Source: a virus (taxonomy: Duplodnaviria; Caudoviricetes). From it: DNA of 56,592 nucleotides. Each line of letters begins with the position of its first letter. Position 1 is the stretch's first letter. The position numbers and the translations under genes were made by a program. The stretch is from the IMG/VR virus record IMGVR_UViG_3300037722_000781, positions 1 through 56,592 of that record; one strand, written 5' to 3'. The notes under the pieces are model-generated. The model searched no databases. It had not been told where the DNA came from and saw only the letters and a list, made by a program, of their open reading frames with translations. This document shows positions 30,715 to 56,282 of this stretch, piece after piece.

Positions 30715-30915
30715 TCACTTGCCCATCCTTTCAATGGCCTCTATAATTCCGTACTGAACCGATCTCGCGACAACAGTCAAACTCAAGATCACCGCAAAAG
30801 CGCCCCACTCTTGCGCTAAAAGTGCAACGAAAAGACCAACAAACCAGACCGCCAGCCCAATTTTTTCCGGGGTCGTTAACTTGTCGTCGCCGTCTTCAGT
30901 ACTAACCGCCATCAC
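30715..30915 (-). CDS. Small two-TM protein
   Basis: Two hydrophobic segments. Confidence 0.55.
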   Translation of the reverse strand: MMAVSTEDGDDKLTTPEKIGLAVWFVGLFVALLAQEWGAFAVILSLTVVARSVQYGIIEAIERMGK

Positions 30916-31436
30916 GCCACCCCTATCAGTTCATTGGCCAGCGTCACCTGGCACGGCCGCCCGAACAGCGTCAGCAGCAGCTTGGACCGCTGCTTGCCGT
31001 CCGGCTCGGCGAACAGCCCGACATGGCCCACCCACGCGCCGTCCAGTACCTCGACTTTCTCGCCGGGCTGGAATATCCTGGGATGTCCCGGGGCGGGGCC
31101 TTCAATCCGTATGTAGCCGTCCTCTTCCCTGGCCCGGATGGCGTCCAGGCACTCTTGCGGGAACGGCGTGGGATCCTCGCTGGCCCCGGTCAGCACATCG
31201 CAGACGCCCCTTGTAGCCCGCACGGAACGCCATACAGGCGCTTGGTGCCCGATGGCCATGTAGTGCGGGAATAATGGCTCAACGCGCCCCGTGGGCAGCA
31301 GGCAGCGCGGCAAGTAGGTCTCATAGCCCTGGTCCTGCAGCCGGTATTCCGCGACGGTTTCCTTGTGCGGCAGGTAGCGGAGCCAGAACCACAGCAGCGG
31401 CGCGTCATCGCGGGCAAGGGCGGCGGTGTGGCTCAC
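30912..31436 (-). CDS. NusG/RfaH-family transcription antiterminator
   Basis: NGN (ETYLP, PLFPHY, ATRGV) plus KOW (FQPGEKVEVLDGAWVG) and LFGR. Confidence 0.88.
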   Translation of the reverse strand: MSHTAALARDDAPLLWFWLRYLPHKETVAEYRLQDQGYETYLPRCLLPTGRVEPLFPHYMAIGHQAPVWRSVRATRGVCDVLTGASEDPTPFPQECLDAIRAREEDGYIRIEGPAPGHPRIFQPGEKVEVLDGAWVGHVGLFAEPDGKQRSKLLLTLFGRPCQVTLANELIGVA

Positions 31437-34682: not shown

Positions 34683-35453
34683 TCATGGGAGCAGGGCCTG
34701 TTGCTGCGGCTTCGGGCGCGGCTCACCGAACAGCTTGCCCTGGCGCTGTGCCTCTTCGATGCGCTTGCACGCGATGTCGAAGAAGCGCGGTTCCATCTCG
34801 ATACCGACGAATTTGCGCCCGAGATTCATGCAGGCAACACCAGTCGTGCCGCTGCCCATGAAGGGGTCAAGCACAACCTGACCAGTGGTAGAAAATAGGC
34901 TTACCAACTCGCACATCAGCGGCAATGGCTTCTGAGTTGGATGGTCGCCGTTCGCATTTTTGCGGAATGTGAAGTTTCCTGGGCGACCTCCGCCGTTCCA
35001 CTTCGAATGGCCTGGCCCACACCAGACAGCTACCATCATTTCGTGGCCTACTGACGGCCCTTGTCCGTTGAACTGAGGCATTGCGTCTGGCTTAACCCAA
35101 ACCATTGCGCGCTTATATTTTGCTCCCGCATCCTGAAAAGCGTCTCGCCACGAACGAACACCCTCTGCTATACAAAAAACAATTGCCCATCCATTGCAGG
35201 CGGTTTTTATGGCTTGAGCGGTTTGTGGGCGGATCAGATCAATGGCTGAAAAACCTAGCTCGCCAATAGCATGCACACTCTTGAGTTTTTTGATGTCCAA
35301 GCGTACGAGAGACGTGCGGCCAAAGTTCTTCTGCATAACCTCGTCATAAGGCGGGTCCGTCACCACGGCATCGACCTTGCCAAGCGTCGGCAGAATCTCC
35401 AGGCAATCGCCGCAGTAGAGCGTTGCATCGCCGATGGTGACGGGCTCGCTCAT
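34683..35453 (-). CDS. Orphan N6-adenine/N4-cytosine DNA methyltransferase (beta class)
   Basis: TDPPY, HPTQKP, DPFMGSGTTG. Confidence 0.95.
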   Translation of the reverse strand: MSEPVTIGDATLYCGDCLEILPTLGKVDAVVTDPPYDEVMQKNFGRTSLVRLDIKKLKSVHAIGELGFSAIDLIRPQTAQAIKTACNGWAIVFCIAEGVRSWRDAFQDAGAKYKRAMVWVKPDAMPQFNGQGPSVGHEMMVAVWCGPGHSKWNGGGRPGNFTFRKNANGDHPTQKPLPLMCELVSLFSTTGQVVLDPFMGSGTTGVACMNLGRKFVGIEMEPRFFDIACKRIEEAQRQGKLFGEPRPKPQQQALLP

Positions 35454-35932
35454 TCCTGCCGCTCCGCCGCCCTGGGCCATGGCGATTCGTAGGGCGGGCG
35501 CTTAAAGGGCCGGGACGCAATGACGCGGCCGTTGTGGGCGGATATGGGGCGCTTAGGGGAGTTCTGCGGGCCACCTGACTGCCGGTTAAAACGTCGTGGC
35601 AGACCTTCGGCGGCTGCCCGCTTGCTACGGGGCTTGGCCAGTCCGCAGAGCCCCCCTAAGCGTCCCTTCTTTTGAATGCGCTTTACCTTGGCGATGCGCT
35701 GCACGTCGCTACCGGCTGTCGTGGCGCGCGTTCCGCTTGTCTTCGTCCGGTGGCAGGGCTCGGCATGAACGAGCCTGTCGGGCTTCCCTGGGCCACCCAA
35801 GGCTATCGGGATGCTGTGCTCTTCGTCTATCCGCTGGCCGGGCAACATGGGCTCGCCGCAGATGGCGCACTTACCGTCCTGGGCCTGCCACATGGCGGCG
35901 CGCTCGGCTTTGCTGAGGCGGGCGCGCTTCAT
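35450..35932 (-). CDS. HNH-family protein
   Basis: CAICG...EHSIPIALGG...CHRTKT. Confidence 0.8.
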   Translation of the reverse strand: MKRARLSKAERAAMWQAQDGKCAICGEPMLPGQRIDEEHSIPIALGGPGKPDRLVHAEPCHRTKTSGTRATTAGSDVQRIAKVKRIQKKGRLGGLCGLAKPRSKRAAAEGLPRRFNRQSGGPQNSPKRPISAHNGRVIASRPFKRPPYESPWPRAAERQE

Positions 35933-36297
35933 GCCGCCACCTTCCCGCGCAAGGGCATGAACGCCGATAGATATTCCTCGACTTCTGAAAGCGAGCTGCA
36001 CATCGCCACGTAAGCGCCGGCCTTCACCAGCGAGCGGGTGGTTTCATGCTGCCGTTCTGAAAGCTTTCGTCCCGGAGCCTTCAATTCGATGAAGATGGCC
36101 CGCCCCCGATGTATAATTTCGACATCTGGGACGCCTGCTTTCTGGCCCATGGCCTTTGCAACACCGGCCTCTGCTTTCGAGCGCTTGAACCCGTTCGAAA
36201 TGGCAAACCACTCCGCGTCCTCGGGCAGCGCAATGTCGAGGTACTGCGCCACGCTTCTTTGCAGGGCTTCCTCGGGCCTGTTGCGGATGCGGGTCAT
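35929..36297 (-). CDS. VRR-NUC nuclease
   Basis: EEALQ, AGVPD, FIELK, LSERQ. Confidence 0.88.
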   Translation of the reverse strand: MTRIRNRPEEALQRSVAQYLDIALPEDAEWFAISNGFKRSKAEAGVAKAMGQKAGVPDVEIIHRGRAIFIELKAPGRKLSERQHETTRSLVKAGAYVAMCSSLSEVEEYLSAFMPLRGKVAA

Positions 36298-51291: not shown

Positions 51292-51414
51292 GCAGTTCCC
51301 TCTGGGGAAAGGGCACCAAACGCCCCGGAAGTTCCTGTGCCGTTCATGGCCAAATAGGGCAGAAATGCCTGTACGCACTACAGTATATCAATATACTGGC
51401 TGACGGGAACTGCG

Positions 51415-51459
51415 TTCACACGGCAGGGGTCGCTGGTTCAATCCCAGCCGCGCCCACCA
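51415..51459 (+). other. attP core: 3' half of tRNA-Val(CAC)
   Basis: TTCACACGGCAGGGGTCGCTGGTTCAATCCCAGCCGCGCCCACCA with no 5' half; flanked by AGGCAGTTCCCT repeats at 51290-51301 and 51487-51498 and an inverted GGGAACTGC at 51405-51413. Confidence 0.88.
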
Positions 51460-51527
51460 GACTTTCCAAGCAGTTAGCCGCAAAACAGGCAGTTCCCTTT
51501 GGTAGAATTTCACCATGGGAGCCGCCA

Positions 51528-51914
51528 GTGCTTACGAACGCGGAAATCTCTCGCTTCTGGGATAAGGTCGCCGTGCGCGGGCCGGATGACTGCTGGGAAT
51601 GGCAGGCCGGTTGCTTCAAGCGTGGCTACGGCGCCTTTGCCTTCGATGGCCACAAGCCCGGCTATGCGCACCGCTTCTCCTACGAGCTGCACCACGGGCC
51701 GATCCCTGAGGGCATGCGTGTGCTGCACGAGTGCGACAACCCGCCGTGCGTCAACCCGAAGCACCTCAGGGCAGGCACCCAGAAGGACAACATCCAGGAC
51801 GCCGTGAACAAGGACCGCTGGATGACCGAAGCGCGGCAGGCCCACCTGGAGAAGGTCGCCAGCGGCACGGTTGCCAGAGGCTCACATGGGCACTTTGAGC
51901 CGGGCTGGAAATGA
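51528..51914 (+). CDS. HNH endonuclease
   Basis: RFWDKV...CWEW...AHRFSY...HECDNPPCVNPKHL...DN. Confidence 0.9.
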   Translation: MLTNAEISRFWDKVAVRGPDDCWEWQAGCFKRGYGAFAFDGHKPGYAHRFSYELHHGPIPEGMRVLHECDNPPCVNPKHLRAGTQKDNIQDAVNKDRWMTEARQAHLEKVASGTVARGSHGHFEPGWK

Positions 51915-51959
51915 CCGGCCCGCCTAACCCCGGCTGTCCGGCAAGAGAGAGGTAGAGAC

Positions 51960-52187
51960 ATGGGATACCGAAATGAAGACGGCACTTGGCATGACAGGTG
52001 CCTAGAGAAAGTGCATCCGAATGAGCCCATTTTTGTTTTACGAGCGCAGGACAAGCTTGCGCCGGCGCTGGTGAGGGCGTGGGCCGATCTGGCGCGGTTG
52101 CACGGCTGCCCGCCCAGCAAGGTGAGTGAGGCCCACAAGACAGCCGACGCCATGGAAGTCTGGCAAGTTCGGAAGTTCCCAGACTAG
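51960..52187 (+). CDS. Conserved-type small phage protein
   Basis: NEPIFVLRAQDKLAP motif. Confidence 0.7.
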   Translation: MGYRNEDGTWHDRCLEKVHPNEPIFVLRAQDKLAPALVRAWADLARLHGCPPSKVSEAHKTADAMEVWQVRKFPD

Positions 52188-52226
52188 CCCGCCCCGGCTC
52201 TGTCCTGCTGTTAGAGAGAGGTTGCT

Positions 52227-52682
52227 ATGACGAAGGTGATAATGATTCAGGGGACCGCCTGCCAGGAGCACCAGTGCGGCACCTGCGGCGTGTGGTTCGC
52301 CATCCCTGACATCATCATTGATAGTTGCCGGCGCGAAGGCGGGTTTTTTAGTTGCCCCAATGGACATAGCCGCGGCTGGGAGAAAAAGGACTGCGAGACT
52401 GAGACCGATAAAATCCGCCGCGAGCGCGACAGGCTCCAGCAACGTCTTGCCCAGAAGGATGACGACATAGCTTTCCAGCGCGAGCAGCGAGCGGCGGCCG
52501 AACGCTCGGCCATCGCCTACAAGGGCCAAGCGACCCGCCTTCGCAAGCACGCCAAGGCCGGCACCTGCCCGTGCTGCAAGCGAACCTTCCGGCAGCTCGC
52601 CCTGCATATGAAGCACAAGCACCCGGACTTTTCGCCAGAGGCACCCGAGCTAAAGGTGGTGGCCGGCGGCAAGCCCGCCTAA
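52227..52682 (+). CDS. Zinc-finger coiled-coil protein
   Basis: CGTC, CPNGH, coiled coil, CPCC...HMKHKH. Confidence 0.75.
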   Translation: MTKVIMIQGTACQEHQCGTCGVWFAIPDIIIDSCRREGGFFSCPNGHSRGWEKKDCETETDKIRRERDRLQQRLAQKDDDIAFQREQRAAAERSAIAYKGQATRLRKHAKAGTCPCCKRTFRQLALHMKHKHPDFSPEAPELKVVAGGKPA

Positions 52683-52712
52683 CCCCGGCTGTCCGGCAAG
52701 AGAGAGGTAGAG

Positions 52713-52919
52713 ATGGCACACACAAGAGTGGACAACCCCTACAACAGTACGCCGTTTTCATCGTGCTGCGGCATAGCTTCGCAAGACGCAAACGGGCGGC
52801 CCGACGATCATTGCCATAAATGCGGGCAAGCAATGACGCACCACGATAATGGGCTGCCGCCACGTAAGCCGGGGCACTGCCTTATGTGCGGCAAAGCGTA
52901 CTCGGTTTGCTACTGCTAA
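52713..52919 (+). CDS. Small Cys-rich protein
   Basis: CC, CHKC, CLMC, CYC. Confidence 0.6.
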   Translation: MAHTRVDNPYNSTPFSSCCGIASQDANGRPDDHCHKCGQAMTHHDNGLPPRKPGHCLMCGKAYSVCYC

Positions 52920-54055: not shown

Positions 54056-54111
54056 CCCGCCCCCGCCTATCAGCCATTGCTTTTCCGGGGGGAGTTGGGT
54101 AGGATGGGGGT

Positions 54112-54248
54112 GGTTGTGGCGACATGGCATTCGAGCCGGGAGGCAGTTGACAACTGTAGGCCCGGCCCATGGCGTCGGATCAAGTGATGGTCGGGAGGCC
54201 TGCGGTGCGAGTCCGCACAGACCGGGGTTAGTCACCGGCCCACAGCCA
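54112..54248 (+). ncRNA. tRNA-like structured ncRNA A
   Basis: Promoter TTGCTT-N17-TAGGAT (54077-54105); closing stem GGTTGTGG/CCACAGCC; internal hairpins including TGCGG-TGCGAGT-CCGCA; downstream GC hairpin AAGCCCCGC/GCGGGGCTT. Confidence 0.6.
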
Positions 54249-54430
54249 GCAAGCCCCGCCGGGCCGTAGCGCCAGCGGGGCTTCTGCTTGGGCGAACTGT
54301 TCGGAATTTCCGAAGAGTTGCCCCGCCCCTGCTCCGGCAGCACTCTCGGCCAGACCCGACCATTTTGCTGACGCCCGCAATATGGTCTTATGGTGGCACT
54401 CCAGGCCGGCCCACAACCAAAAAGCCACGT

Positions 54431-54730
54431 CTACTCAGGCGGCAGCACAGGCCCCACAGGCGGCTGCTCAACGGCCGCAGCCCTATCCAGGCAGATATCC
54501 GTCCAGGCCCCCCAGCGGTCCGCTGAGACGCCGTAGCGGTCGACCACGGCACCCACGGGGCTGGCCCGGCAGATGTACCACTCGGCGTTCTCGAGGCCGG
54601 CAGCGGCGGCTTCACGGCCCTGGGTGGCAATGCCCTGGCGGATCGCGTCGCCCTGGGGTGTCAGGCCGCAGCCGGCGAGCAGGAACAGGGCCAGCAGGGC
54701 GCCGGCCCAAGTACGGATAGGTCGCAGCAT
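54431..54730 (-). CDS. Lipoprotein
   Basis: Lipobox LLAGC. Confidence 0.7.
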   Translation of the reverse strand: MLRPIRTWAGALLALFLLAGCGLTPQGDAIRQGIATQGREAAAAGLENAEWYICRASPVGAVVDRYGVSADRWGAWTDICLDRAAAVEQPPVGPVLPPE

Positions 54731-54912
54731 TTCAGAAATCCCTATGATGGTGGGCAGGACGAAACGGGGGGCTCACCAGCAGGCTCGGCAAGCCTGTCCG
54801 GTCACACTTAAGCTTGATTTTTCTGAGAGTTTCTCTATAGATAGTCGGGCTGAAGCGGCGCTCGCAACGCCAGCCTCAGCCCTAACCACACCAACCGATG
54901 GAGCCGGTTGCC

Positions 54913-55377
54913 ATGGCTACTCTGACGCTATCTCTGCACGTCAAATCACTCAAGTCTGACATCGAGCGACGACTGTGGATCCTCACCGCGCCAGAGCCCA
55001 ACTCCGGCTGCTGGCTTTGGACAGGCGCGGTTAATCCTCATGGATATGCAAAGATCAGAATCGATGGCACGGACTGGCTTGGCCACAGGCTCGCATATGA
55101 GCTTTTCGTCGGCCCCATTCCCCGCGGGTTAGAGTTGGACCACAAATGCCGCGTTCGAAGCTGCATAAATCCAGACCACATGGAGCCGGTGACGGGCCGC
55201 GAGAATATTCTGCGGGGTGAAAGCGTCTCGGCCCAGAACGCTCGGAAGACTCACTGTAACCACGGTCACAAGTTCATGCCCGAAAACACCTACGTTTACC
55301 CAAATGGCCACCGCGTCTGCAGGGCGTGTAAGAGACGCATTGACCGAACAAGATATGCCAAGCAAACAAGCGGGTAG
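54913..55377 (+). CDS. HNH endonuclease with C-terminal zinc-finger
   Basis: PEPNSGCWLW...HRLAY...LDHKCRVRSCINPDH...EN; THCNHGH...CRAC. Confidence 0.9.
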   Translation: MATLTLSLHVKSLKSDIERRLWILTAPEPNSGCWLWTGAVNPHGYAKIRIDGTDWLGHRLAYELFVGPIPRGLELDHKCRVRSCINPDHMEPVTGRENILRGESVSAQNARKTHCNHGHKFMPENTYVYPNGHRVCRACKRRIDRTRYAKQTSG

Positions 55378-55480
55378 CCGGCCGCACGGGAAAAGCTTGG
55401 CATTCGGGTACTCCTGTGCTAAGTGGTCAGGTATGGAATCACCGCTCGCCAGCAAACGAACGACACGGGGCTGACACAGC

Positions 55481-55557
55481 GCCCCGTTAGCTCAATTGGC
55501 AGAGCAGCGTCCTTGTAAGTCGCCGGGTCCGGGTTCGAATCCTCGGGCGGGGCTCCA
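55481..55557 (+). tRNA. tRNA-Thr(TGT)
   Basis: GCCCCGT/GCGGGGC acceptor, loop CTTGTAA, GGTTCGAATCC, CCA; one anticodon-stem mismatch and a T-stem bulge. Confidence 0.85.
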
Positions 55558-55609
55558 GCCTTCAGAGGCCGACATGCGATCATCTAGTAGCCGCCGATAC
55601 CGTCTCTTA

Positions 55610-55696
55610 GGAGAGTGAACCAGCAGGGATGCTGGCGACGGCTGCTACCCGTTCGGCACCTCACGGTGTGTGGCTCAAGACCACCGCTCTCCGCCA
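55610..55696 (+). tRNA. tRNA-Ser(GCT), 8/4 structure
   Basis: 8-bp acceptor GGAGAGTG/CGCTCTCC, 6-bp D stem, loop CTGCTAC, long V arm, 4-bp T stem GTGG/CCAC, G73-CCA. Confidence 0.8.
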
Positions 55697-55782
55697 GGAG
55701 GGCGCCGCTGAATGGCCGGCAACTGGTCCCGAAAACCAGGGTAACCGCAAGGTTAGGGGTTCGATCCCTCCGCCCTCCGCCA
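55697..55782 (+). tRNA. tRNA-Ser(CGA), 8/4 structure, C33
   Basis: GGAGGGCG/CGCCCTCC, loop CCCGAAA, V arm TAACC-GCAA-GGTTA, 4-bp T stem, G73-CCA. Confidence 0.8.
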
Positions 55783-55792
55783 ACCTCCCCAA

Positions 55793-55880
55793 GGGCCTCT
55801 ATCCGGCCGGCGGGCTGTAACCCCGTTGCTCACAATTGGCCGGTGGCTGGCGAGAGGTTCGATTCCTCGGAGGCTCACCA
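55793..55880 (+). tRNA. tRNA-Tyr(GTA)-like RNA lacking a D arm
   Basis: GGGCCTC/GAGGCTC acceptor, GCGGG-CTGTAAC-CCCGT, GGTTCGATTCC, ACCA; only 10 nt between acceptor and anticodon stem. Confidence 0.65.
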
Positions 55881-55882
55881 AT

Positions 55883-55959
55883 GCGAGCGTGGCCAAACGG
55901 TAAAGGCAGCTCCCTCAAAAGGAGAAGACATGCAGGTTCGAATCCTGCCGCTCGCACCA
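55883..55959 (+). tRNA. tRNA-Leu(CAA), short variable loop
   Basis: GCGAGCG/CGCTCGC, loop CTCAAAA, GCAGGTTCGAATCCTGC, ACCA. Confidence 0.85.
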
Positions 55960-55961
55960 GC

Positions 55962-56038
55962 GCCGGGGTAGCCCAACGGTAGGAGGCGGGTGCCTTAGGA
56001 GCATCACAGTGTCGGTTCGAATCCGACCCCCGGTACCA
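55962..56038 (+). tRNA. tRNA-Leu(TAG), short variable loop
   Basis: GCCGGGG/CCCCGGT, loop CTTAGGA, GTCGGTTCGAATCCGAC, ACCA. Confidence 0.85.
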
Positions 56039-56043
56039 ACAGC

Positions 56044-56079
56044 AGCCGGCCCCTCTTCGGAGCGGGCCGGTTGTGTTTT
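56044..56079 (+). terminator. Intrinsic terminator after the tRNA cluster
   Basis: AGCCGGCCC...GGGCCGGTT stem with TTCG loop, followed by GTGTTTT; near-identical copy at 56236-56265. Confidence 0.75.
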
Positions 56080-56105
56080 GGCCCGCCTTTGGTATAGTGG
56101 GGGCT

Positions 56106-56233
56106 GGCTTGTGGCGGCGCTGAAGGAAGCGCGCTCGGCAGTGGAAGTGAGGACCGCGACGACTGCCTGCCATGCGAACAAGCAGCGGGCGAGACAGTGA
56201 GCATAAGCCGGTTTCGAGTCCGGCCCACAGCCA
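56106..56233 (+). ncRNA. tRNA-like structured ncRNA B
   Basis: Extended -10 TGGTATAGT (56090-98); acceptor-like stem, D-like GCGCT/AGCGC, GCTC/GAGC stem enclosing about 60 nt, T arm GCCGG-TTTCGAGT-CCGGC; terminator follows. Confidence 0.65.
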
Positions 56234-56282
56234 GCAGCCGGCCCCTCCCCAAGAGCGGGCCGGTTCGCTTTAGGAATTTGTC

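What the first reader, a model, noticed from the sequence alone, without database searches (positions are those of the whole stretch)
54077..56270. Two tRNA-mimic ncRNAs with shared termini but different cargo flank the tRNA cluster
Seen: RNA A (54112-54248) and RNA B (56106-56233) each sit between a predicted sigma70 promoter and a GC hairpin. They begin GG(C)TTGTGGCG and share an exact 17-nt 3' segment CCGGCCCACAGCCAGCA (54235-54251, 56220-56236) that pairs with the 5' end as an acceptor-like helix. B has a D-like arm and a T arm, but the anticodon loop is replaced by about 60 nt of extra hairpins. A has a different interior with a T-loop-like hairpin. Inference: a family of phage RNAs using a tRNA shell (RNase P/T-loop recognition, stability) to display variable domains, for example decoys for anticodon nucleases or other RNA-sensing defences. 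I do not recognise them as tmRNA, Y RNA or intron-containing tRNA.
Basis: partly seen in the sequence, partly recalled or inferred. Interest (0 to 1): 0.78.

Follow-up and report, generated by a model that had tools for sequence, protein, structure and literature searches.

The report
Paired tRNA-shaped phage small RNAs
A temperate phage of a probable alphaproteobacterium carries two stand-alone, roughly 130-140-base structured RNA genes beside its tRNA genes; they have the same ends and unrelated middles, match no catalogued RNA family, and most resemble the still-unexplained small stable RNAs of phage T4.

Summary
RNA A (54112-54251) and RNA B (56104-56236) share an exact 17-nt 3' end, a 5' TTGTGGCG and a motif just upstream (GGTAKRRTGGGGG). 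In both, the ends pair as an 8-bp helix (pair probabilities 0.49-1.0). Each RNA runs straight into a strong GC hairpin. The interiors are not significantly alike. B has tRNA cloverleaf connectivity, with about 66 nt of extra hairpins in place of the anticodon arm. A shares only the terminal helix plus an adjacent 4-bp hairpin. That gives the same 8/4 geometry as three unusual tRNAs in the neighbouring cluster.

No Rfam family, ARAGORN call or homologue was found in any collection searched. There is therefore no covariation evidence and no expression evidence. Assembled contigs from other metagenomes hint at further alleles with the same ends and other middles, and at alleles that lack B.

Best reading (confidence 0.35): these are non-decoding RNAs with a tRNA-derived constant handle and an exchangeable inner domain, and they bind a tRNA-recognising protein. 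An anticodon-nuclease decoy is unlikely, because they have no anticodon loop. A Y-RNA-like reading is a live rival. The closest analogues are T4 RNAC and RNAD. This is a new variant of a known kind, of moderate interest.

The parts
54077..54105 (+). Promoter-like site of RNA A: TTGCTT (54077-54082), 17-nt spacer, TAGGAT (54100-54105). It is followed by GGGGG, and the helix starts 7 nt after the -10 hexamer.
   Evidence: Read from the sequence. The conserved motif GGTAKRRTGGGGG has only these two exact sites in the window. The site is below the tool's consensus threshold.
54112..54251 (+). RNA A. Terminal helix 54112-54119 with 54240-54247. T-loop-like hairpin 54201-54217. 4-bp hairpin 54222-54238 next to the 3' strand. 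Shared 3' 17-mer 54235-54251.
   Evidence: No ORF overlapping it passes the GC3 filter.
54249..54287 (+). GC hairpin (terminator-like, weak U tract) that begins at the GCA of the shared 3' end.
   Evidence: Fold energy -25.4 kcal/mol.
54380..54429 (+). Third, degenerate short copy. It has CCGGCCCACAACCAAAAAGCC and an upstream GGTGGCAC, with no interior.
   Evidence: family D2; 83% identity to A's 24-nt 3' block. Its fold is not stable. Joints in contigs from runs X1 and X2 skip this region.
54898..55377 (+). Free-standing HNH endonuclease gene lying between RNA A and the tRNA cluster.
   Evidence: Pfam HNH_3, E = 4.2e-13. Contig joints that skip it are seen in runs of 3 studies other than the possible source (X2, X3, X4).
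55481..56038 (+). tRNA cluster: Thr(UGU), two 8/4 Ser tRNAs (GCU, CGA), one 8/4 tRNA with anticodon GUA, Leu(CAA) and Leu(UAG). All six encode CCA.
56040..56055 (+). First copy of the 16-nt direct repeat CAGCAGCCGGCCCCTC. The second copy is at 56232-56247. The two copies bracket the B unit (rest of a terminator, promoter, RNA B).
   Evidence: family D14. In run X2 a contig joins 56039 to 56232 with 16 letters that fit both sides.
56071..56098 (+). Promoter-like site of RNA B: TTGTGT, 16-nt spacer, TATAGT, followed by GGGGG.
   Evidence: The site is below the tool's consensus threshold.
56104..56236 (+). RNA B. Terminal helix 56106-56114 (U56110 bulged) with 56225-56232. D-like hairpin 56117-56132. 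Inserted three-way junction 56133-56202. T-like hairpin 56207-56224. Shared 3' 17-mer 56220-56236.
   Evidence: Fold z-score -2.85.
56234..56268 (+). GC hairpin (terminator-like). It is a paralogue of the hairpin that follows tRNA-Leu(UAG) at 56036-56081.
   Evidence: Fold energies -24.3 and -30.8 kcal/mol. Repeat families D4 and D14.

Best explanation
A and B are independently transcribed, non-decoding structured RNAs. Each has its own weak sigma-70-type promoter, its own terminator hairpin, and a transcription start at the first base of the terminal helix.

They share a constant handle: an 8-bp terminal helix stacked on an adjacent 4-5-bp hairpin. This 12-13-bp branch is equivalent to the acceptor/T branch of the 8/4 tRNAs encoded beside them, and I infer that it derives from a tRNA. 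In B the D-like and T-like arms remain, so the RNA probably keeps a tRNA elbow, while the anticodon arm is replaced by a three-way junction. In A only the branch remains.

Inferred mechanism: the constant handle is bound by a protein that recognises the upper half of tRNAs. The exchangeable inner domain gives each RNA its specificity, acting as a sponge, decoy or adaptor during infection or lysogeny. The units behave like small independent insertions and are swapped or lost by recombination at their conserved ends and terminators.

Shown: the anatomy, the shared ends, the unrelated interiors, and the absence from known families.
Inferred: transcription, tRNA ancestry, protein binding and function.
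For: - Shared ends and upstream motif.
- The terminal helix is strongly predicted in both RNAs.
- The + strand folds 11.1 kcal/mol (A) and 5.6 kcal/mol (B) better than the - strand.
- B has cloverleaf connectivity: a 2-nt linker, a D-like arm with GG in its loop, a 4-nt variable linker, and a T-like arm with UUCGA in its loop that abuts the 3' strand.
- The three neighbouring tRNAs have 8-bp acceptor and 4-bp T stems. This type is reported for tRNA clusters of alphaproteobacterial phages (PMC5389517, passages read).
- The T4 precedent: RNAC (139 nt) and RNAD (119 nt) lie at the end of the T4 tRNA cluster, which also holds a homing endonuclease. RNAC folds with paired ends and a perfect T arm next to the 3' strand.
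- No coding signal is present.
- The interiors are unrelated.
- Contigs of other runs give several hints (run at 80% likeness). One contig in X4 holds B with 1 differing letter over 158 nt in a different upstream context. One contig in X2 carries the same 3' end after a different 85 nt, with the hairpin stem GCCGG/CCGGC kept. One contig in X1 (the possible source sample) matches up to 54121 and again from 54235. One contig in X2 lacks B.
Against: - No homologue was found, so there is no covariation.
- The two copies carry identical helix strands and are not independent evidence for the helix.
- The Rfam tRNA and tRNA-Sec models give no hit on A or B even at E<=10 in searches of 181 and 201 nt.
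- ARAGORN calls nothing at default settings. At lowered thresholds it gives only noise-level calls: 20 calls in 2.7 kb.
- B's T-like loop has 8 nt. The loops at this position in A (9 nt) and in the X2 variant (9 nt) are not T-like.
- A's fold is no better than shuffles.
- The 3' strand runs into the terminator stem and there is no CCA.
- The window encodes no tRNA-handling protein that I could recognise. Of the 30 ORFs scanned against Pfam, the only nucleic-acid-related hits were the integrase, HNH-type endonucleases (one strong hit, one weak) and a NusG-like protein; 22 of the 30 had no hit.
- The contig joints were obtained at 80% likeness with short sides (21-44 letters). The tool warns that such joints often come from other organisms or repeats.
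Confidence: 0.35

Rival explanations
1. Y-RNA-like RNAs. The conserved terminal stem would be the binding site of a Ro60/Rsr ring protein, encoded by the host or in the missing 14% of the phage. The variable interiors would be effector modules, as in YrlA/YrlB pairs and in phage Y-RNA arrays.
For: - A phage that shares the 96-aa gene next to attP (66% identity) carries a TROVE gene preceded by three tandem units with shared ends and different middles. The third unit scores 43.5 bits on the YrlA model.
- Ten of 11 further Ro-phage loci looked at show arrays of such units. 27 units were extracted from 9 loci, counting L215's own record L226.
- Size (80-130 nt in the paper; A and B are 133-140 nt), paralogue sets, and a tRNA-like member all fit Chen et al. 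2014 (PMC4201824, passages read).
- A and B start ...GUGGCG, which is the most conserved 5' block of those units. A's UGUGGCGACA equals the start of two units in L234.
Against: - There is no TROVE gene in the 56.6-kb record, although the record is only 86% complete.
- The gene directly after B is not Ro.
- The YrlA model gives no hit on A or B at E<=10.
- Weight-matrix scans built from the 5' and 3' blocks of the units score A and B at about 0 bits or below, against a training median of 17.7 bits, and the window's best hits lie within the shuffle range.
- The boxes GUUACUUC and UGUUCCC are absent.
- The motif GNCGAAN0-1G is not matched exactly. A has GGCGACAUG. B has GCUGAAG inside a hairpin.
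- B's arm order is D...T, as in a tRNA, not the permuted T-AS-D order of YrlA.
- Only 1 of 9 related records carries TROVE or YrlA.
Confidence: 0.15
2. Ordinary trans-acting or protein-titrating small RNAs, unrelated to tRNA. The closing helix and terminator would merely protect the RNA from nucleases, and the resemblance of B to a cloverleaf would be coincidental.
For: - Each has its own promoter-like site and terminator hairpin.
- Neither matches tRNA models.
- The loops of the hairpin next to the 3' strand vary.
- Prophage-encoded small RNAs as independent insertions are common (established knowledge, recalled).
Against: - The RNAs are almost fully base-paired, with few long single-stranded stretches to act as seeds.
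- Identical ends combined with unrelated interiors are not expected for base-pairing RNAs.
- Their position on both sides of a tRNA cluster, and the 8/4 geometry shared with its tRNAs, would both be coincidences.
Confidence: 0.15
3. Decaying or rearranged tRNA genes and recombination scars with no function of their own. The region would be a hot spot of insertions and deletions around homing endonucleases, and the repeated ends would be leftover boundary sequences that promote recombination.
For: - A third, truncated copy exists.
- Contig joints in other runs skip B, the HNH gene and the region after A.
- The 16-nt direct repeats bracket the B unit.
- A's fold is not better than chance.
- There are no homologues elsewhere.
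Against: - The conserved motif just upstream places the predicted start exactly at the helix in both copies.
- B's fold is better than all 200 shuffles.
- B is nearly identical (1 differing letter in 158) in one contig of another study, in a different upstream context.
- The stem of the hairpin next to the 3' strand is kept across three unrelated interiors.
Confidence: 0.15
4. Miniature inverted-repeat transposable elements with a variable passenger.
For: - The ends are imperfect inverted repeats.
- Presence and absence vary between contigs.
Against: - The inverted repeat is only 8-10 bp, and there is no target-site duplication at either copy (read).
- Conservation extends asymmetrically into a promoter-like motif on one side and a terminator on the other.
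- The deletion seen in X2 runs between terminator repeats, not between the inverted repeats.
- No further copies exist in the window or in the collections searched.
Confidence: 0.03

Closest known systems
Phage T4 small stable RNAs RNAC (species 1, 139 nt) and RNAD (species 2, 119 nt)
   Same: - Two RNAs of about 120-140 nt lie at a phage tRNA cluster that also holds a homing endonuclease.
- RNAC folds with paired 5' and 3' ends, a T arm next to the 3' strand and long hairpins in place of the rest of the cloverleaf, like B.
- Their biological roles are unknown (PMC3014915 and PMC9697503, passages read).
   Different: - nhmmer finds no sequence similarity at E<=10.
- The T4 RNAs sit head to tail with the tRNAs, and RNAC has a canonical 7-nt UUCGAAU loop. 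That they are co-transcribed and processed with the tRNAs is recalled, not checked here.
- A and B have their own promoter-like sites and terminators and share ends with each other. The two T4 RNAs do not visibly share ends.
Bacterial and phage Y RNAs (YrlA/YrlB; Rfam RF02553)
   Same: - Length is about 80-130 nt, the 5' and 3' ends form a conserved stem, and paralogues have different inner modules, one of them tRNA-like.
- They are often next to tRNAs in phages (PMC4201824; arrays seen).
- A and B share the 5' block GUGGCG with them.
   Different: - There is no Ro60 gene in the record, no YrlA model hit, and the Ro motif and the conserved boxes are absent or inexact.
- In YrlA the terminal stem replaces the anticodon stem, so the order is permuted. 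In B the terminal stem is the acceptor-like stem.
8/4 'allo-type' tRNAs of alphaproteobacterial phages (Mukai et al. 2016, PMC5389517)
   Same: - An 8-bp terminal helix plus a 4-bp adjacent stem gives a 12-bp branch.
- Such tRNAs lie in the same cluster of this window.
- The paper notes that some irregular tRNAs may be regulatory non-coding RNAs.
   Different: - A and B have no anticodon arm, no encoded CCA and no long variable arm.
- They are 45-55 nt longer and are not detected by tRNA or tRNA-Sec models.
tmRNA tRNA-like domain
   Same: The acceptor-like ends and T arm enclose a large non-tRNA insert.
   Different: - The insert is only about 70 nt, with no plausible tag reading frame.
- ARAGORN and the Rfam tmRNA models do not match.

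Membership tests
tRNA / tRNA-Sec (RF00005, RF01852) | Covariance-model score at or above the gathering score, or an ARAGORN call | tested here: not met
   A and B get no hit at gathering score, at E<=10 over 2.7 kb, or at E<=10 over 181 and 201 nt. ARAGORN at default settings finds 3 tRNAs and none on A or B. At an 80% threshold it makes 20 calls in 2.7 kb, which is noise.
tRNA / tRNA-Sec (RF00005, RF01852) | Anticodon stem-loop with a 7-nt loop, and a 3' CCA (encoded, as in all six tRNAs of this cluster) | tested here: not met
   In B the position holds a 70-nt three-way junction. The 3' end reads A-GCA and is part of the terminator stem.
tmRNA (RF00023, RF04321) | ARAGORN or Rfam detection, and a tag reading frame | tested here: not met
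   Only spurious permuted-tmRNA calls appear at a 70% threshold.
Y RNA / YrlA (RF02553) | Encoded within about 4 kb of a Ro60 (TROVE) gene on the same strand (PMC4201824) | tested here: inconclusive
   There is no TROVE match in the 56592-base record. The record is estimated to be 86% complete, and B lies 356 nt from its end. The host is unknown.
Y RNA / YrlA (RF02553) | GNCGAAN0-1G motif near the 5' end | tested here: not met
   A reads GGCGACAUG. B reads GGCGGCG at that place, and GCUGAAG lies inside its D-like hairpin. The weight-matrix scan is not significant.
Y RNA / YrlA (RF02553) | Covariance-model match | tested here: not met
   There is no hit at E<=10. Positive controls score 43.5 bits in L215 and 32-40 bits in 4 of 10 Ro-phage loci.
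T4 RNAC/RNAD-type stable RNAs (no curated family) | Small stable RNA at a phage tRNA cluster, with paired ends and a T arm next to the 3' strand | tested here: inconclusive
   The architecture is shared by B and T4 RNAC. There is no sequence similarity. The stability and processing of A and B cannot be tested here.
8/4 allo-tRNA | 12-bp branch split 8/4, plus an anticodon arm and a long variable arm | tested here: not met
   The branch geometry is met in A (8 + 4, with a 1-nt spacer). B has 8 bp with one bulge, plus 5 bp. The anticodon and variable arms are absent.
MITE | Terminal inverted repeats of about 15 bp or more, target-site duplication, and many copies | tested here: not met
   The inverted repeat is 8-10 bp and there is no duplication. 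The window holds 2 full copies and 1 partial copy. None occurs elsewhere.

The most novel reading that the evidence does not exclude
A cassette system for non-coding RNA in temperate phages. A constant chassis (promoter-proximal motif, tRNA-derived terminal helix, terminator) would receive unrelated structured RNA domains, exchanged between related phages in nature. This would be an RNA counterpart of the hypervariable anti-defence gene loci of phages. Each cargo would titrate or redirect a different host factor through one shared tRNA-type protein handle. It would also suggest what T4 RNAC and RNAD are for.
Probability: 0.2. Interest if true: 0.8.

Novelty: new variant of a known kind. Interest (0 to 1): 0.55.

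Why it matters
Small stable RNAs embedded in phage tRNA clusters have been known since the 1970s in T4, and their function is still unknown. Finding an unrelated pair with the same placement and a tRNA-type shell, in a distant temperate phage, suggests a recurrent solution rather than an oddity of T4. Here the RNAs have their own promoters, identical ends and unrelated interiors.

If the constant ends are a protein handle and the interiors are exchangeable, this would be a compact model for how phages use tRNA mimicry outside translation. It would also be directly testable: express A and B, pull down their partners, delete them. Finally, it shows that current RNA family libraries and tRNA finders miss such genes.

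Tried and rejected
**Homologue searches that found nothing relevant**
- The exact 17-mer in IMG/VR gave 28 loci with 30 matches. All were unrelated coding or actinophage 5'-UTR contexts.
- The two-end pattern in metagenome contigs gave 17 loci, all coding or unrelated.
- The pattern for the upstream motif plus 5' end in IMG/VR gave 22 loci, none with the 3' partner.
- blastn against GenBank phages hit only tRNAs.
- nhmmer with A and B found nothing against 24 loci of portal relatives and relatives of the 151-aa protein or against 9 loci of relatives of the 96-aa protein. Against 119 phage tRNA-Ser loci totalling 0.99 Mb it gave one hit, at E=4.
- blastn of B against 5 and then 401 genomes of the class of G010 gave only 21-34-nt matches. 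The one I read lies in coding DNA.
- A apparent relative in L248 (CAGCCAGCAGC after the homologous tRNA cluster) was rejected, because the related loci L281 and L262 lack it.

**Relatives by protein**
- The portal protein has only relatives of 35-42% identity.
- The gene after B has no relatives.
- The locus most similar to the window around the 96-aa gene (L216) and the one with the closest 96-aa homologue (L214) hold ordinary genes at the corresponding place.

**Models and alignments**
- I abandoned a covariance model of A plus B because MAFFT misaligns the 5' ends.
- I abandoned a model of the cluster's tRNAs for the same reason.

**Expression and run data**
- No RNA holder is listed among the sequencing runs.
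- Parts of the stretch have no contig cover in runs X2-X4, and no conclusion is drawn from that.

**Peptides**
- Small peptides read by eye in A and B lack ribosome-binding sites and were rejected.

**Closed or unavailable resources**
These might show similar RNAs and could not be seen: Supplementary Figure S2 of PMC5389517 (tRNA clusters of alphaproteobacterial phages), the supplementary tables of PMC10690425 (8495 candidate structured RNAs from IMG/VR), and those of PMC4201824.
- The claim that such RNAs are not described rests on searches only.


Full report
**Context**

The window is a single IMG/VR virus record of 56592 bases, estimated to be 86% complete. It encodes a P22-type portal protein (E = 2.1e-188) and a tyrosine integrase.

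Just downstream of the integrase gene, positions 51409-51459 reproduce the 3' part of a tRNA. This fragment is found mainly in alphaproteobacterial genomes. I conclude that this is a temperate phage, probably of an alphaproteobacterium. The exact host is unknown.

The region from 51.5 to 56.6 kb holds small orphan genes, two HNH endonuclease genes, a minus-strand lipoprotein gene, a tRNA cluster and the two RNAs.

**The observation**

The 17-mer CCGGCCCACAGCCAGCA occurs exactly at 54235-54251 and 56220-56236. A third copy with three mismatches lies at 54406-54422.

Both RNAs begin GG(C)TTGTGGCG. Both are preceded by GGTAKRRTGGGGG, which has only these two exact sites in the window. That motif contains -10-like hexamers (TAGGAT, TATAGT), with TTGCTT and TTGTGT lying 17 and 16 nt upstream. 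These sites fall below the threshold of the consensus scan, which reported no promoter-like site in this region. If they are used, transcription starts at the first base of the terminal helix in both cases.

The 5' and 3' ends pair as 8 bp in both RNAs, with one bulged U in B. Pair probabilities are 0.65-1.0 in A and 0.49-1.0 in B. Such a helix occurs at 0.6% of window positions.

The last three bases of the shared 17-mer already belong to strong GC hairpins of -25.4 and -24.3 kcal/mol. The + strand folds better than the - strand by 11.1 and 5.6 kcal/mol. No overlapping ORF shows the strong third-position GC bias of this genome's genes.

The interiors are not significantly similar: 35 of 500 shuffles reach the global alignment score and 52 of 500 reach the local score. 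The description 'same ends, different cargo' is therefore correct.

**Anatomy**

B has the connectivity of a cloverleaf:
- the terminal helix;
- a 2-nt linker;
- a hairpin GCGCU-GAAGGA-AGCGC, with the GG expected of a D loop;
- a 4-bp helix that opens into two hairpins, 70 nt in all, where the anticodon arm would be;
- a 4-nt linker;
- a hairpin GCCGG-UUUCGAGU-CCGGC that abuts the 3' strand.

The T-like loop of B has one nucleotide too many. B folds better than all 200 shuffles (z = -2.85).

A is not a cloverleaf. It has the 8-bp helix, a 4-bp hairpin with a 9-nt loop next to the 3' strand, an internal hairpin whose loop UGCGAGU resembles B's T-like loop, and several other helices. Its fold energy is not unusual (z = -1.14).

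Three tRNAs of the adjacent cluster have an 8-bp acceptor stem and a 4-bp T stem. Mukai et al. describe this type for tRNA-Ser and tRNA-His in tRNA clusters of alphaproteobacterial phages (PMC5389517, passages read). A's 8 + 4 branch and B's 8 (with bulge) + 5 branch have this same geometry. Together with their position on both sides of the cluster, this is my main reason to think the constant part derives from a tRNA.

**Known families**

Rfam 15 gives no match on A or B at gathering score, at E<=10 over 2.7 kb, or at E<=10 over 181 and 201 nt. ARAGORN finds only three canonical tRNAs. With introns allowed and lowered thresholds it produces 20 calls in 2.7 kb, which cannot be trusted.

A and B are therefore not tRNA, tRNA-Sec, tmRNA or YrlA by the tests available.

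**Search for relatives**

No relative of A or B was found in any of these searches:
- GenBank phages;
- IMG/VR by the 17-mer (28 loci, all unrelated);
- IMG/VR by the upstream motif plus 5' end (22 loci);
- metagenome contigs by both ends (17 loci);
- loci around relatives of neighbouring or hallmark proteins;
- 119 phage tRNA-Ser loci, several of which hold close relatives (85-90% identity) of this window's 8/4 tRNA-Ser;
- 401 genomes of the class of G010.

There is therefore no covariation evidence. Because the two copies carry the same helix strands, they do not support each other independently.

**Assembled contigs of other sequencing runs**

It was run at 80% likeness and the sides of the joints are short, so it is weak. 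The tool warns that such joints can come from other organisms or repeats.
- One contig of run X4 (another study) holds 56081-56238 with a single differing letter, preceded by 113 letters that do not lie on this stretch.
- One contig of X2 matches from 56220 onward but has 85 different letters before it. The last of these keep the stem GCCGG that pairs with CCGGC, around a loop that is not T-like.
- One contig of X1 (the possible source sample, so not independent) matches up to 54121 and again from 54235 to 54283. These are A's two ends plus A's terminator. What lies between them is unknown.
- Another X1 contig follows the 17-mer with a different GC hairpin.
- One X2 contig joins 56039 to 56232 across the 16-nt direct repeat. 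This is an allele without the B unit.
- Contigs in X2, X3 and X4 skip the HNH gene.

Together these observations suggest a small population of related units with the same ends, which are exchanged or lost by recombination. I could not read the contigs themselves.

**The Y-RNA lead**

One phage (L215) shares the 96-aa gene next to attP. Downstream of that gene it carries a Ro60 (TROVE) gene preceded by three tandem RNA units with shared ends and different middles. The third unit matches YrlA at 43.5 bits.

Eleven further Ro-phage loci were looked at. Ten show arrays of such units upstream of the Ro gene, and 27 units were extracted from 9 loci, counting L215's own record L226.

This is the best-documented case of small RNAs with shared ends and different cargo (Chen et al. 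2014, PMC4201824, passages read). A and B also share the block GUGGCG with these units.

The other tests do not support membership:
- The resemblance stops at GUGGCG, and weight-matrix scans are not significant.
- The other conserved boxes are missing.
- The register of the terminal helix differs.
- B's arm order is that of a tRNA, not of the permuted YrlA.
- No TROVE gene is in the record.
- Only 1 of 9 related records has one.

I keep this reading as a rival at 0.15. The missing 14% of the genome starts right after B, and that leaves the rival open.

**Closest analogue**

In T4, RNAC (139 nt) and RNAD (119 nt) lie at the end of the tRNA cluster, which also contains the homing endonuclease gene segB. 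RNAC folds with paired ends and a perfect T arm next to the 3' strand. The roles of both RNAs are stated to be unknown in a 2010 review and a 2022 study (PMC3014915 and PMC9697503, passages read). nhmmer finds no sequence similarity to A or B.

**Verdict**

The feature is real and unannotated. Its anatomy fits non-decoding RNAs with a constant handle, probably tRNA-derived, and an exchangeable inner domain.

A role as a decoy for anticodon nucleases is unlikely without an anticodon loop. Binding by a protein that recognises the upper half of tRNAs is the most economical guess, but nothing here shows it.

Transcription, processing, partners and function are all untested, and the absence of homologues limits confidence. 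I rate it as a new variant of a known kind (small RNAs associated with phage tRNA clusters, tRNA-like or Y-like), with interest 0.55.

Supplementary files that might list similar RNAs could not be read.

Noticed in passing
window 55610-55696, 55697-55782, 55793-55880: Three tRNAs with an 8-bp acceptor stem and a 4-bp T stem: Ser(GCU), Ser(CGA) and one with anticodon GUA and discriminator A. Default ARAGORN and the Rfam tRNA model miss them. The tRNA-Sec model scores 30.1 and 22.3 bits on the second and third. They fit the 8/4 tRNAs described for alphaproteobacterial phages (PMC5389517).
   Followed up: partly
window 55793-55880; L248, L262 and L281 (minus strand, after tRNA-Gln): The GUA tRNA seems to lack a normal D arm. 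Instead, a long-range helix (CCGGCCG with UGGCCGG) encloses the anticodon arm. Homologues in three IMG/VR phages have CCCGUC with GACGGG at the same places. This looks like compensatory change. It was read by eye and not tested formally.
   Followed up: partly
window 54898-55377 (also 51516-51914 and 35450-36001): Free-standing HNH endonuclease genes. The one between RNA A and the tRNAs is skipped by contig joints in runs of three other studies, as expected of a homing endonuclease that is present or absent between strains.
   Followed up: partly
L215 8090-9865; L227-L237 upstream of the TROVE match: Ro60-encoding phages in IMG/VR carry tandem arrays of roughly 2 to 7 Y-RNA-like units. The units share ends (5' NNNG-U-GGYG(N)AG...GUUACUUC, 3' UGUUCCC-N'N'N') and have very different middles, and the terminal 3-4 bp covary. 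Only some units reach even weak scores on the Rfam YrlA model, so most are invisible to it.
   Followed up: partly
window 51918-51958 and 52673-52713 (weaker copy at 52187-52227): An exact 41-nt intergenic repeat, GCCCGCCTAACCCCGGCTGTCCGGCAAGAGAGAGGTAGAGA, ends at the start codons of two early genes. It may be a shared translation-initiation or regulatory leader.
   Followed up: no
window 51409-51459: A 51-nt copy of the 3' part of a host tRNA lies directly after the integrase gene. It is the likely attP core. Matches are spread over many alphaproteobacterial and a few gammaproteobacterial genomes, so it does not name the host.
   Followed up: partly
L003, L009, L012, L013, L017, L018, L020, L025, L029 (IMG/VR): The same 17-mer, on the opposite strand, recurs upstream of genes in a group of high-GC, probably actinobacterial phage contigs, up to four times in one contig. 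It looks like a conserved promoter or 5'-UTR motif of that group. I take the identity with this window's 17-mer to be coincidence.
   Followed up: no
L248, L262, L281 (minus strand, after the tRNA cluster): A conserved hairpin, GGGCATTGATCTGTGCCC, carries a -35-like TTGATC. It is followed by TATGAT and then by a hypervariable leader of about 180 nt before a conserved phosphatase-like gene. L281 also has a 176-nt highly structured insert (-79 kcal/mol) between two tRNAs.
   Followed up: no
window 30912-31436 (minus strand): A phage-encoded NusG-like protein (Pfam NusG, E = 3.4e-9).
   Followed up: no
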